Shown in pieces: positions 53,823 through 55,336 of a stretch of DNA of 64,000 nucleotides. The position numbers and the translations under genes are program-made. Each line of letters begins with the position of its first letter. Positions within the stretch are counted from its first letter, which is position 1. The notes below the pieces were generated by a model that saw only the letters and a list, made by a program, of their open reading frames with translations, made no database searches and was not told the DNA's origin. The DNA comes from Escherichia coli (GTDB taxonomy: Bacteria; Pseudomonadota; Gammaproteobacteria; Enterobacterales; Enterobacteriaceae): assembly GCF_003334305.1 (NCBI RefSeq), contig NZ_QOWS01000003.1; one strand, 5' to 3'.

Positions 53823-54470
53823 ATGTTACAGGTATACCTAGTCCGCCACGGTGAAACGCAGTGGAACGCCGAGCGACGTATTCAGGGCCAGTCTGACAGC
53901 CCGCTGACCGCCAAAGGTGAGCAACAGGCGATGCAGGTGGCAACCCGTGCCAAAGAGCTTGGCATTACGCATATCATCAGTAGCGATTTAGGACGCACCC
54001 GGCGTACGGCGGAAATCATCGCCCAGGCCTGCGGCTGTGACATCATCTTTGATTCTCGCCTGCGTGAATTAAACATGGGTGTGCTGGAAAAAAGACATAT
54101 CGATTCTCTGACCGAAGAAGAAGAGAACTGGCGTCGGCAGCTGGTCAATGGCACCGTTGACGGGCGTATTCCTGAAGGCGAGTCAATGCAGGAGCTCAGC
54201 GATCGCGTCAATGCGGCACTGGAATCTTGCCGGGACTTACCGCAGGGAAGCCGACCGCTGCTGGTGAGCCATGGTATTGCACTGGGATGTCTGGTGAGTA
54301 CGATTCTCGGATTACCAGCATGGGCAGAGCGCCGCTTACGTCTGCGTAACTGTTCTATTTCGCGCGTGGATTATCAGGAAAGCCTGTGGCTGGCGTCTGG
54401 CTGGGTTGTTGAAACCGCAGGGGACATCTCACATCTGGACGCCCCTGCATTAGATGAGTTGCAGCGTTAA
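53823..54470 (+). CDS. gpmB: Histidine-phosphatase / phosphoglycerate mutase family protein GpmB
   Basis: 215 aa; RHGETQWN catalytic motif (ytjC). Confidence 0.85.
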   Translation: MLQVYLVRHGETQWNAERRIQGQSDSPLTAKGEQQAMQVATRAKELGITHIISSDLGRTRRTAEIIAQACGCDIIFDSRLRELNMGVLEKRHIDSLTEEEENWRRQLVNGTVDGRIPEGESMQELSDRVNAALESCRDLPQGSRPLLVSHGIALGCLVSTILGLPAWAERRLRLRNCSISRVDYQESLWLASGWVVETAGDISHLDAPALDELQR

Positions 54471-55336
54471 CGACGGATCGGAATCAGCAGTTCACAGCGC
54501 AGATTAATTGGGCGATCTCCCGCTTTGGCATCTTCTGCCGGGTAGTATCGCTCAATATCCTGACCTTTACGGCGCGTCAGATTGAGCATTGGCATGCACG
54601 TTCCGTATACCGTCAGGATAAACTCCTGCACGCCGGTTCCCAGACCTTCATAGGTAAACATCACATATTCGCCGCCCTGCAGCATCACCGGATGCCCCGT
54701 CAGTACATAGCCATCTGCCTGATCCTGGGCTAACGCGGTGGTATAGAATACTTCTTGTTCGTCGTCTTTATCCTGACTCGGACGCGTTTCATTCAGGCCG
54801 TAGAGCACTGGCGGAATGGTCGGCGCGTTGCCGAGAAAATCGTGCCAGAACTGATAACGCATTTCATGGCGGAAATCAGAGATTTGCTCCAGCGAACAGG
54901 AGTAGCTCTGGGTAACACCAATCAGCGGCGTATCTTCCAGGGTGACAAATTTGTGCTCTGGCATAGTGAATTCACCCAGACGTAGCGGCGGGCGAATACC
55001 AAAGGCGCTCCATTCAGGAGAACGGCGGTAAAGTGCAGGAGTCTGGGCAAACTGCTTCTTGAATGCGCGGGTAAATGTCTGTTGAGAGTCGAAGCGGTAT
55101 TGCAGCGCGATGTCCAGAATCGGACGCGCAGTCAGGCGTAGTGCGACCGCCGATTTCGACAAACGACGAGCACGAATATACGCGCCAATAGCATGGCCAG
55201 TGACATCTTTAAACATTCTCTGTAAGTGCCACTTGGAATAACCTGCTTTCGCCGCTACATTGTCGAGCGACAGGGGCTGATCCAGATGACCTTCCAGCCA
55301 GATTAAAAGGTCGCGAATAATGCCGGCCTGATCCAT
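54467..55336 (-). CDS. rob: AraC-family right-oriC-binding transcriptional activator Rob
   Basis: 289 aa; N-terminal AraC HTH plus C-terminal GyrI-like domain. Confidence 0.9.
   Translation of the reverse strand: MDQAGIIRDLLIWLEGHLDQPLSLDNVAAKAGYSKWHLQRMFKDVTGHAIGAYIRARRLSKSAVALRLTARPILDIALQYRFDSQQTFTRAFKKQFAQTPALYRRSPEWSAFGIRPPLRLGEFTMPEHKFVTLEDTPLIGVTQSYSCSLEQISDFRHEMRYQFWHDFLGNAPTIPPVLYGLNETRPSQDKDDEQEVFYTTALAQDQADGYVLTGHPVMLQGGEYVMFTYEGLGTGVQEFILTVYGTCMPMLNLTRRKGQDIERYYPAEDAKAGDRPINLRCELLIPIRR

What the first reader, a model, noticed from the sequence alone, without database searches (positions are those of the whole stretch)
54460..54475. gpmB and rob stop codons share a TTAA palindrome
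Convergent gpmB (+) and rob (-) overlap by 4 bp: gpmB's TAA (54468-54470) and rob's TAA (complement of 54467-54469) share the palindrome ttaa, leaving no room for separate terminators. Transcription of one gene must read into the other in antisense.
Basis: seen in the sequence. Interest (0 to 1): 0.1.

Follow-up and report, generated by a model that had tools for sequence, protein, structure and literature searches.

The report
gpmB and rob share stop codons
Two real E. coli genes on opposite strands end in the same four bases (TTAA), so each messenger RNA runs into the other gene backwards; this is a common, already annotated and already measured arrangement, not a new finding.

Summary
gpmB (+, 53823-54470) and rob (-, 54467-55336) overlap by 4 nt. 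TTAA at 54467-54470 holds both TAA stops and sits inside the 8-bp palindrome CGTTAACG, because both proteins end in Arg (CGT).

RefSeq annotates the same overlap in K-12 and other strains. It is kept in 72 of 78 Enterobacteriaceae species loci, using all four permitted tetramers (TTAA, CTAA, TTAG, CTAG). Only 2 of the 12 point changes in TTAA keep both stops, so ordinary purifying selection explains the conservation.

- Transcript maps show a 300-nt 3' overlap.
- A bicyclomycin-sensitive (Rho) termination region lies about 220 nt past the rob stop, inside gpmB.
- An abundant RNase III-type 21-bp dsRNA maps 16-37 nt from the TTAA.
- ytjC-rob is listed among 165 convergent "excludons" in E. coli.

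The tetramer class itself was described in 2007.

The overlap is dispensable. Some Buttiauxella and Pluralibacter have abutting stops or an ERIC insertion, and Plesiomonas has an 11-nt gap.

Minor additions: a conserved hairpin at 54417-54448 with some covariation, and a relative in which rob sits directly next to yjjX.

Verdict: real, ordinary, already known.

The parts
53823..54470 (+). gpmB (ytjC) coding sequence, 215 aa. The last codon is CGT (Arg215) at 54465-54467 and the stop TAA is at 54468-54470.
   Evidence: ORF list. RefSeq annotation in KSC9 and K-12. Histidine-phosphatase relatives in the PDB. The tail ...DELQR* is conserved across Enterobacteriaceae.
54467..55336 (-). rob (robA) coding sequence, 289 aa. 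The last codon CGT (Arg289) is the complement of 54470-54472 and the stop TAA is the complement of 54467-54469.
   Evidence: ORF list. RefSeq annotation. Identical over 1-289 to PDB 7vwy_G, and 1d5y also matches. The tail ...IPIRR* / ...IPVRR* is conserved.
54467..54470 (.). Shared tetramer TTAA holding both stop codons; this is the 4-nt overlap.
   Evidence: Sequence. In other species it is TTAA, CTAA, TTAG or CTAG. Only 2 of 12 point substitutions keep both stops.
54465..54472 (.). 8-bp palindrome CGTTAACG, formed by Arg-CGT plus TAA read on both strands.
   Evidence: Sequence. The junction decamers are GCGTTAACGG (30), GCGTTAACGA (28), GCGCTAGCGG (5) and others.
54247..54466 (-). Untranslated 3' extension of rob transcripts, antisense to the 3' third of gpmB. 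The published coverage-based transcript end is at 54311. The published Rho (bicyclomycin-sensitive) termination region peaks at 54247.
   Evidence: Adams 2021 Supplementary file 2: MG1655 4634221 (-), antisense to ytjC. Read counts upstream/downstream are 228/49 without bicyclomycin and 164/177 with it. Conway end T 4632308, quoted in Huang 2020 Table S1d. The RNA is C-rich relative to G here, with C/G 1.3-1.67 over the first 130 nt. Coordinates transfer exactly because K-12 differs by 11 SNPs and no indels.
54471..54611 (+). Untranslated 3' extension of gpmB transcripts, antisense to the 3' end of rob. The published transcript end is at 54611.
   Evidence: Conway end T 4632608 and overlap length 300, quoted in Huang 2020 Table S1d. 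A C>G stretch lies at +131 to +260 nt, with C/G up to 2.08. Adams 2021 lists no + strand 3' end or Rho region here.
54433..54454 (.). Site of an abundant 21-bp sense/antisense dsRNA, an RNase III-type product captured by the p19 protein.
   Evidence: Huang 2020 Table S3, sheet 'E 21-bp', row 11: U00096.2 4632430-4632451, with 13,933 sense reads and 1,138 antisense reads, gene ytjC. The sequence matches the window.
54417..54448 (.). Conserved GC-rich hairpin (GCAGGGG...CCCCUGC) inside the last 18 codons of gpmB, 23-54 nt past the rob stop. It can form in either transcript and has no U-tract.
   Evidence: Folds of -20.9 kcal/mol on the rob strand (z -3.5) and -16.0 on the gpmB strand (z -3.4). 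On 72 sequences, 85.7% of cells are paired, 4 pairs change on both sides and 0/500 shuffles reach the covariation score. The strand is not resolved: 8.51 vs 8.43 of 9 outer pairs.

Best explanation
This is an ordinary tail-to-tail gene overlap of the commonest kind. Two genuine genes on opposite strands place their stop codons in one shared tetramer.

Shown from the sequence and comparisons:
- The overlap costs neither protein anything. The only coupling is between the third base of one gene's stop (A or G) and the wobble base of the other gene's final Arg codon (T or C). That is why TTAA, CTAA, TTAG and CTAG all occur in nature.
- Ten of the 12 possible point mutations in the tetramer destroy a stop and add 24 residues to GpmB or 30 to Rob. 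Purifying selection on the two C-termini alone therefore keeps the overlap.

Shown by published transcript data:
- With no intergenic DNA, each gene's 3' untranslated tail is antisense to the other gene.
- rob transcripts run about 150-220 nt into gpmB.
- gpmB transcripts run about 140 nt into rob.
- The roughly 300-nt complementary tails pair and yield RNase III-type 21-bp duplexes. This makes the pair a 'convergent excludon'.

Partly shown, partly inferred:
- That rob transcripts stop at a Rho-dependent region is published. That Rho loads because the RNA becomes untranslated and C-rich after the rob stop is inferred.

Inferred:
- Any mutual repression through polymerase collision or dsRNA decay follows from the general excludon model. 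It has not been shown for this pair.
- The 4-nt overlap itself is incidental tight packing, not a device.
For: - Sequence and ORFs.
- The same annotation in RefSeq K-12 and KSC9.
- Both proteins are supported to the last residue.
- 72 of 78 species-representative Enterobacteriaceae loci have the 4-nt overlap, and all four tetramers occur.
- Mutational spectrum of the tetramer.
- The tetramer class and the count of 58 convergent overlaps in E. coli were described in 2007.
- No intrinsic-terminator-like site lies downstream of either stop within the partner gene.
- A Rho termination region lies antisense to ytjC at MG1655 4634221 (window 54247).
- C>G composition downstream of both stops.
- The Conway transcript ends give a 300-nt convergent overlap.
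- A 21-bp dsRNA maps to window 54433-54454.
- ytjC-rob is listed as a convergent excludon.
- The overlap is dispensable. Three species have abutting stops, two have a 135-146 bp ERIC insertion with both protein tails intact, and Plesiomonas has an 11-nt gap.
Against: - No published 3' end or Rho region was found for the gpmB-to-rob direction in the Adams data. That direction rests on coverage-based transcript ends, on the dsRNA, and on an excludon call that gives no locus detail.
- Part of the antisense RNA over the gpmB 3' end could start at a reported antisense TSS inside rob (window 54484) rather than come from read-through of full-length rob mRNA.
- Opposing expression of the two genes has not been shown for this pair.
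- The deep conservation, together with a covarying hairpin next to the junction, leaves some room for selection on the arrangement itself.
Confidence: 0.9

Rival explanations
1. The overlap is a selected regulatory device. The shared stop tetramer and the lack of any spacer are kept because the resulting antisense coupling lets strongly expressed rob hold gpmB down, or the reverse.
For: - The overlap is kept in 72 of 78 Enterobacteriaceae species loci.
- A neighbouring hairpin shows covariation at synonymous sites.
- An abundant dsRNA arises from the overlap.
- The pair is listed as an excludon, and excludon pairs as a class show higher synteny.
Against: - Purifying selection on the two stops explains the conservation without any regulatory benefit.
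- Lineages with abutting stops, with an ERIC insertion or with an 11-nt gap keep both genes intact.
- Antisense coupling would exist just as well with a spacer of a few nucleotides, so the 4-nt overlap itself adds nothing.
- No expression data show reciprocity for this pair.
Confidence: 0.1
2. The conserved hairpin at 54417-54448 is a bidirectional intrinsic terminator embedded in gpmB, and it ends both transcripts.
For: - The GC-rich stem is stable on both strands, with z about -3.5.
- It is conserved, with changes on both sides in 4 pairs.
- A 2007 survey found predicted intrinsic terminators inside coding sequence for about 20% of genes in E. coli convergent overlaps.
Against: - No U-tract follows the stem on either strand: GGUUUCAAC on the rob strand and AUUAGAUG on the gpmB strand.
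- On the gpmB strand the hairpin lies upstream of the stop codon, so it cannot be that gene's terminator.
- The consensus terminator scan did not flag it.
- Term-seq lists no 3' end there.
- The published rob transcript end and the Rho region lie 106 and 170 nt further downstream.
Confidence: 0.04
3. rob, antisense gpmB and yjjX form a 'noncontiguous operon'. rob transcription continues across gpmB on the opposite strand into the co-oriented yjjX, and Rho sets how much gets through.
For: - yjjX lies on the rob strand directly beyond gpmB.
- With bicyclomycin, downstream coverage on that strand rises from 49 to 177 reads.
- In one relative that lacks gpmB, rob and yjjX are adjacent and co-directional with a 15-nt gap.
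- Plesiomonas has the same nested order.
Against: - Without bicyclomycin, about four fifths of the signal is lost at the Rho region (228 to 49 reads).
- yjjX has its own 5' end, overlapping ytjC divergently by 102 nt.
- ExcludonFinder lists three noncontiguous operons in E. coli, and this is not one of them.
Confidence: 0.08
4. Annotation artefact: one of the gene ends is wrong and the overlap disappears on revision.
For: None was found.
Against: - Stop codons are not a matter of choice once the frame is known.
- Both frames are supported by homology to the last residue in 78 species.
- Rob is also supported by solved structures of the 289-aa protein.
Confidence: 0.01

Closest known systems
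Convergent (tail-to-tail) 4-nt gene overlaps of prokaryotes, with tetramers CTAA/TTAA/CTAG/TTAG (Lillo & Krakauer 2007, PMC2174442)
   Same: The geometry is exactly this: the two stops share one tetramer. The paper names TTAA, counts 58 convergent overlaps in E. coli, and notes that any terminator must then lie in coding sequence.
   Different: Nothing differs. This locus is simply one instance. The one addition made here is that all four tetramers are seen at this single orthologous junction.
Convergent excludons of E. coli (ExcludonFinder, NAR 2025, PMC12288877)
   Same: ytjC-rob is listed by name among the 165 convergent excludons found in at least 50% of 58 RNA-seq samples. The locus has overlapping 3' transcript tails and RNase III-type dsRNA.
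   Different: The defining behaviour, mutually exclusive expression, has not been shown for this pair. The mean intergenic distance of E. coli excludons is 95 nt, whereas here it is -4.
Rho-dependent termination of antisense/untranslated RNA (Adams et al. 2021, PMC7815308)
   Same: There is a bicyclomycin-sensitive region on the rob strand antisense to ytjC. It is one of many 'antisense' Rho regions in that table.
   Different: No equivalent region was reported for the gpmB strand inside rob.
Bidirectional intrinsic terminators between convergent genes
   Same: A GC-rich hairpin close to both gene ends can fold on both strands.
   Different: It has no flanking U/A tracts, it lies inside a coding sequence, and no 3' end has been mapped at it.

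Membership tests
Convergent 4-nt stop-stop gene overlap | Two protein-coding genes on opposite strands, tail to tail | tested here: met
   gpmB is on + and rob is on -. RefSeq annotation agrees.
Convergent 4-nt stop-stop gene overlap | Both stop codons lie in one tetramer of the set TTAA/CTAA/TTAG/CTAG | tested here: met
   TTAA lies at 54467-54470. Orthologous junctions use all four tetramers. The set is defined in the paper read.
Convergent 4-nt stop-stop gene overlap | Both ORFs are genuine and extend to the annotated stop | tested here: met
   Rob is identical to a solved 289-aa chain. GpmB is a histidine phosphatase. Both tails are conserved in 78 species.
Convergent excludon | Transcripts of the two genes overlap at their 3' ends | tested here: met
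The overlap is 300 nt from the Conway ends, and the pair is listed by ExcludonFinder. The window's own strain was not measured.
Convergent excludon | Sense/antisense dsRNA is formed and processed by RNase III | tested here: met
   A p19-captured 21-bp duplex maps to window 54433-54454 and ranks 11th in its sheet. dsRNA cluster 299 covers window 54316-54998.
Convergent excludon | Opposing (mutually exclusive) expression of the two genes | not tested
   No pair-specific expression data were found in the papers read. Testing this needs RNA-seq under rob or gpmB perturbation.
Rho-dependent terminator (rob strand) | Read-through increases when Rho is inhibited by bicyclomycin | tested here: met
   Adams 2021 Supplementary file 2: at 4634221 (-), the downstream/upstream read counts are 49/228 without and 177/164 with bicyclomycin, p 3.9e-19.
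Rho-dependent terminator (rob strand) | Untranslated, C-rich and G-poor RNA upstream of the termination zone | tested here: met
   C/G is 1.3-1.67 in the 78-nt windows over the first 130 nt after the rob stop, and again 1.56-1.59 at +131 to +234. The bias is modest.
Rho-dependent terminator (gpmB strand) | Bicyclomycin-sensitive region downstream of the gpmB stop | tested here: inconclusive
   Adams 2021 lists none between MG1655 4634200 and 4635399 on the + strand. A C>G stretch exists at +131 to +260, with C/G up to 2.08. Low gpmB expression could hide a signal.
Bidirectional intrinsic terminator | GC-rich stem-loop | tested here: met
   The hairpin at 54417-54448 folds at -20.9 and -16.0 kcal/mol on the two strands.
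Bidirectional intrinsic terminator | U-tract 3' of the stem on both strands | tested here: not met
   The stem is followed by GGUUUCAAC on the rob strand and AUUAGAUG on the gpmB strand. The scan did not flag it.
Bidirectional intrinsic terminator | Mapped RNA 3' ends at the base of the stem | tested here: not met
   The Adams 2021 tables list no Term-seq 3' end in MG1655 4634200-4634999.
Noncontiguous operon | A single transcript joins two co-oriented genes across an opposite-strand gene | not testable with these tools
   Only indirect evidence exists: read-through toward yjjX appears under bicyclomycin. Long-read RNA data are needed.

The most novel reading that the evidence does not exclude
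The tight rob/gpmB junction is the visible part of a conserved three-gene antisense unit. rob and yjjX would be an old co-oriented pair; they are adjacent, 15 nt apart, in a relative that lacks gpmB. gpmB is nested between them on the other strand. Rho, together with a conserved covarying hairpin at 54417-54448, would set how much rob transcription crosses gpmB and reaches yjjX. Rob output would then tune GpmB and YjjX levels, making this a conditional noncontiguous operon or excludon.
Probability: 0.08. Interest if true: 0.35.

Novelty: already known. Interest (0 to 1): 0.08.

Why it matters
It matters little. The overlap is in the reference annotation, the tetramer class was described in 2007, and the predicted antisense read-through has been measured by several groups, with the pair named in a 2025 excludon catalogue.

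The locus could serve as a clean teaching example for two reasons:
- One orthologous junction shows all four permitted tetramers.
- Natural 'spacer' variants (a 4-nt duplication, an ERIC insertion, an 11-nt gap) show that the overlap is tolerated rather than required.

Rob is a clinically relevant activator of the AcrAB efflux pump. If rob transcription did set GpmB or YjjX levels, that would be of modest interest to specialists, but nothing found here shows it.

Tried and rejected
- Annotation error. Rejected: both frames are supported to the last residue.
- Intrinsic terminators hidden in the partner gene. The consensus scan found none in the relevant stretches. Broad folds of 110 nt downstream of each stop were unremarkable, with z -1.5 and -1.2.
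- The local hairpin at 54417-54448 as a terminator. Rejected: it has no U-tract and no mapped 3' end, and the published ends lie further downstream.
- Assigning the hairpin to one strand by counting G-U pairs. This was inconclusive: 33 cells pair only on the rob strand and 90 only on the gpmB strand, the latter mostly at the apical pair, and the outer 9 pairs score 8.51 vs 8.43.
- Known RNA families at the junction. There was no Rfam hit there.
- Reaching Yersinia- or Serratia-level relatives. This failed. The genome scan kept only the 80 best loci, all Enterobacteriaceae. The homologue search listed only its best 120. The 50%-identity representatives jump straight to about 50% identity. Two of the five representatives examined (L087, L089) sit in unrelated contexts and are probably paralogues.
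- Supplementary data. None are held for Dar & Sorek 2018 or for ExcludonFinder.
- A full-text search for gpmB + rob + antisense found nothing.
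Full report
**The observation**

Window 54460-54476 reads tgcagCGTTAACGacgg. 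The ORF list gives gpmB at 53823..54470 (+, 215 aa, tail ...DELQR) and rob at 54467..55336 (-, 289 aa, tail ...IPIRR). The gpmB stop TAA is 54468-54470. The rob stop TAA is the complement of 54467-54469.

The palindrome is 8 bp, not 4. It is CGTTAACG at 54465-54472, because both proteins end with Arg encoded by CGT.

**Is it real, and is it known?**

A 1.8-kb stretch around the junction matches 5421 of 5426 complete E. coli genomes over at least 80% of its length. RefSeq annotates the same 4-nt overlap:
- in strain KSC9 (gpmB 2321580..2322227, robA 2322224..2323093);
- in K-12 MG1655 (ytjC 4633797..4634444, rob 4634441..4635310).

K-12 differs from the window by 11 substitutions and no indels across the two genes, so published K-12 coordinates transfer exactly. 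The conversions are U00096.3 = window + 4579974 and U00096.2 = window + 4577997.

Rob is identical over residues 1-289 to PDB 7vwy chain G and matches 1d5y. GpmB is a histidine-phosphatase-family protein.

**Comparative picture**

One scan of species-representative genomes with Rob returned 80 loci, all Enterobacteriaceae. I located both stops in each locus. Two loci were too short to include gpmB. Of the remaining 78:
- 72 have the 4-nt overlap.
- All four tetramers that can hold two opposed stops occur. In junction decamers, TTAA is by far the commonest, followed by CTAG, then TTAG and CTAA.
- Nearly all junctions read CG[T/C]TA[A/G]CG, so both terminal arginines are conserved. A TAA-to-TAG change in one gene is the same event as a synonymous CGT-to-CGC change in the other.

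The six exceptions are informative:
- Two Buttiauxella species (L060, L062) and Pluralibacter gergoviae (L081) carry a 4-nt duplication (for example CGTTAATTAACG), so the two stops abut with zero gap.
- Two other Buttiauxella species (L054, L066) carry a 135-146 bp insertion exactly at the junction. It contains the ERIC core (CCCCAGGAGCTTACTTGAGTAAGTGACTGGGG; recognised from memory of the ERIC consensus). In L054 it is flanked by a 12-nt duplication, TACGTCGTTAAC, which leaves both protein tails intact.
- Kluyvera genomosp. 3 (L047) still has a CTAA junction, but gpmB appears frameshifted a few codons upstream.

For more distant relatives I used representatives at about 50% identity and looked up their contigs:
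- A Rob 49% identical, belonging to Plesiomonas shigelloides, has the same order rob->, <-gpmB, yjjX->. It has an 11-nt gap, and its Rob carries 8 extra residues after IPIRR.
- One unnamed relative lacks gpmB and has rob followed 15 nt later by yjjX on the same strand.
- Another unnamed relative has rob converging on trpR with a 10-nt gap.
- Two further representatives lie in unrelated contexts.

So the rob 3' end is tightly packed against its neighbour throughout this syntenic region. The -4 state characterises the sampled Enterobacteriaceae.

**Why it is conserved**

I enumerated the 12 single-base changes of TTAA. Only T54467C (CTAA) and A54470G (TTAG) keep both stops, and these are the variants seen in nature. 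The other ten destroy a stop. Read-through would add 24 residues to GpmB or 30 to Rob. Purifying selection on two C-termini is therefore enough to explain the conservation. The natural spacer variants show that the overlap itself is dispensable.

**How common is it?**

In the RefSeq annotation of the homologous stretch of strain KSC9 there are ten convergent junctions. Nine have gaps of 37-160 nt, and only gpmB/rob overlaps. That stretch is collinear with the window from about 30 kb onward.

Lillo & Krakauer (2007) describe a jump at length 4 in the distribution of convergent overlaps. [quoted passage not shown] The class is textbook-level knowledge.

**Transcription**

A consensus scan finds no intrinsic-terminator-like site on the + strand inside rob or on the - strand inside gpmB. 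Folds of about 110 nt downstream of each stop are unremarkable.

1. Huang et al. 2020 (mBio), Table S1d, dsRNA cluster 299 covers window 54316-54998, with genes rob and ytjC.
   - Its 'Conway et al. overlapping transcripts' columns give T 4632308 and P 4633375, overlap length 300, strand -, Convergent. The column header was checked.
   - The neighbouring yjjX/ytjC row gives P 4631692 and T 4632608.
   - In window terms, the rob transcript ends at 54311, which is 156 nt past its stop. The gpmB transcript ends at 54611, which is 141 nt past its stop.
2. Table S3 of the same paper lists a 21-bp p19-captured duplex at U00096.2 4632430-4632451, which is window 54433-54454.
   - The reads are UCUGGACGCCCCUGCAUUAGA (13,933) paired with UAAUGCAGGGGCGUCCAGAUG (1,138).
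   - It is the 11th row of the 'E 21-bp' sheet, whose rows run in descending order of sense read count.
   - The two strands are complementary over 19 nt with 2-nt overhangs. This fits a product of intermolecular sense/antisense pairing rather than of a hairpin.
3. Adams et al. 2021 (eLife), Supplementary file 2, lists a Rho termination region at MG1655 4634221 (-), which is window 54247, classified as antisense to ytjC.
   - Reads upstream/downstream are 228/49 without bicyclomycin and 164/177 with it. The Rho score is 5.02 and p is 3.9e-19.
   - Composition is consistent: the RNA after the rob stop has C/G of 1.3-1.67.
   - No + strand 3' end or Rho region is listed inside rob, although a C>G stretch (C/G up to 2.08) lies 131-260 nt past the gpmB stop.
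4. ExcludonFinder (NAR 2025) lists ytjC-rob among 165 convergent excludons seen in at least 50% of 58 MG1655 RNA-seq samples.

One caveat applies. Huang's table also cites an antisense TSS (Dornenburg et al.) at U00096.2 4632481 (-), which is window 54484, 14-17 nt before the rob stop. Some of the antisense RNA over gpmB may therefore start there rather than come from read-through.

**A side observation: the hairpin**

On the rob-strand RNA, 23-54 nt after the TTAA, lies a hairpin: GCAGGGGCGUCCAGAUGUGAGAUGUCCCCUGC, window 54448..54417.
- It folds at -20.9 kcal/mol (z -3.5). On the gpmB strand it folds at -16.0 kcal/mol (z -3.4).
- On an alignment of 72 distinct sequences, 85.7% of cells pair. 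Four pairs change on both sides, two of which (25-52 and 28-49) join third-codon positions on both sides and one of which (31-45) joins a third position with a first position (Ile/Val). None of 500 shuffles reaches the covariation score. That control ignores phylogeny.
- The strand cannot be assigned.
- It has no U-tract and no mapped 3' end, and the published rob ends lie 106-170 nt further on. It is therefore not a terminator. It could be a processing or stability element; that is an inference.

**Verdict**

Interest is low. The most novel reading still open is a conserved rob-[gpmB]-yjjX antisense unit gated by Rho. It rests on gene order, the bicyclomycin read-through and the covarying hairpin, and I give it about 8%.

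Noticed in passing
window 54417-54448: A conserved GC-rich hairpin lies inside the last 18 codons of gpmB, 23-54 nt past the rob stop. Four of its pairs change on both sides, mostly at synonymous sites. It can fold on either strand and has no U-tract. An abundant published 21-bp dsRNA (window 54433-54454) overlaps its arm.
   Followed up: partly
L054:3871-4016 and L066:3871-4005 (Buttiauxella brennerae, Buttiauxella sp. B2): An ERIC-like repeat of 135-146 bp is inserted exactly between the rob and gpmB stops. In L054 it is flanked by a 12-nt duplication (TACGTCGTTAAC) that rebuilds the rob tail, so both ORFs stay intact. It amounts to a natural experiment in which a spacer has been inserted between the two stops.
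   Followed up: partly
L060:3865-3876, L062:3865-3876, L081:3865-3876: A 4-nt duplication at the junction (for example CGTTAATTAACG) makes the two stops abut with zero gap in two Buttiauxella species and in Pluralibacter gergoviae. It could be a footprint or precursor of the ERIC insertion seen in sister species.
   Followed up: no
L085:613-2040; L088:2368-3589; L086:65-2201: In more distant relatives the same neighbourhood varies. In L085, rob is followed 15 nt later by yjjX on the same strand, with no gpmB. In L088, rob converges on trpR with a 10-nt gap, with no gpmB or yjjX. In L086 (Plesiomonas shigelloides), rob and gpmB converge with an 11-nt gap, and Rob is 8 residues longer.
   Followed up: partly
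window 55128 (-) and 55169-55186 (-): Adams et al. 2021 report a strong Term-seq 3' end inside the rob ORF, 208 nt from its start (MG1655 4635102). They score it as not Rho-dependent. The consensus scan flags a terminator-like stem about 40 nt upstream of it. This may be premature termination or processing within rob.
   Followed up: no
window 54484 (-) and 54757 (+): Huang et al. 2020 tabulate published antisense transcription start sites here. One is on the rob strand 14-17 nt before the rob stop (Dornenburg et al.). The other is on the gpmB strand inside rob (Thomason et al.). Either could add antisense RNA independently of read-through.
   Followed up: no
window 53692-53823 region (yjjX/gpmB divergent starts): Published transcript maps put the gpmB (ytjC) transcript start 128 nt upstream of its ATG, inside yjjX, giving a 102-nt divergent 5' overlap. 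gpmB mRNA is therefore antisense-paired at both ends. The yjjX start is also annotated differently: a 176-aa ORF here, 173 aa in KSC9 and 170 aa in K-12.
   Followed up: no
window 27686-27772: The window has only one tRNA-Leu(CAG) gene here. Strain KSC9 is annotated with three tandem tRNA-Leu genes at the homologous place (K-12 also has three, leuVPQ, from memory; not checked here). The window is about 200 nt shorter than KSC9 in this region.
   Followed up: partly
window 53173-53250, 48777-48855, 27912-27994: Three Rfam naRNA4 (REP-type repeat) matches. One fills the convergent trpR/yjjX gap right next to the locus studied.
   Followed up: no
window 61869-61988: The thr operon leader lies near the window's end. 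The window therefore spans the conventional start point of E. coli chromosome numbering (…arcA, yjtD | thrL, thrA…).
   Followed up: no
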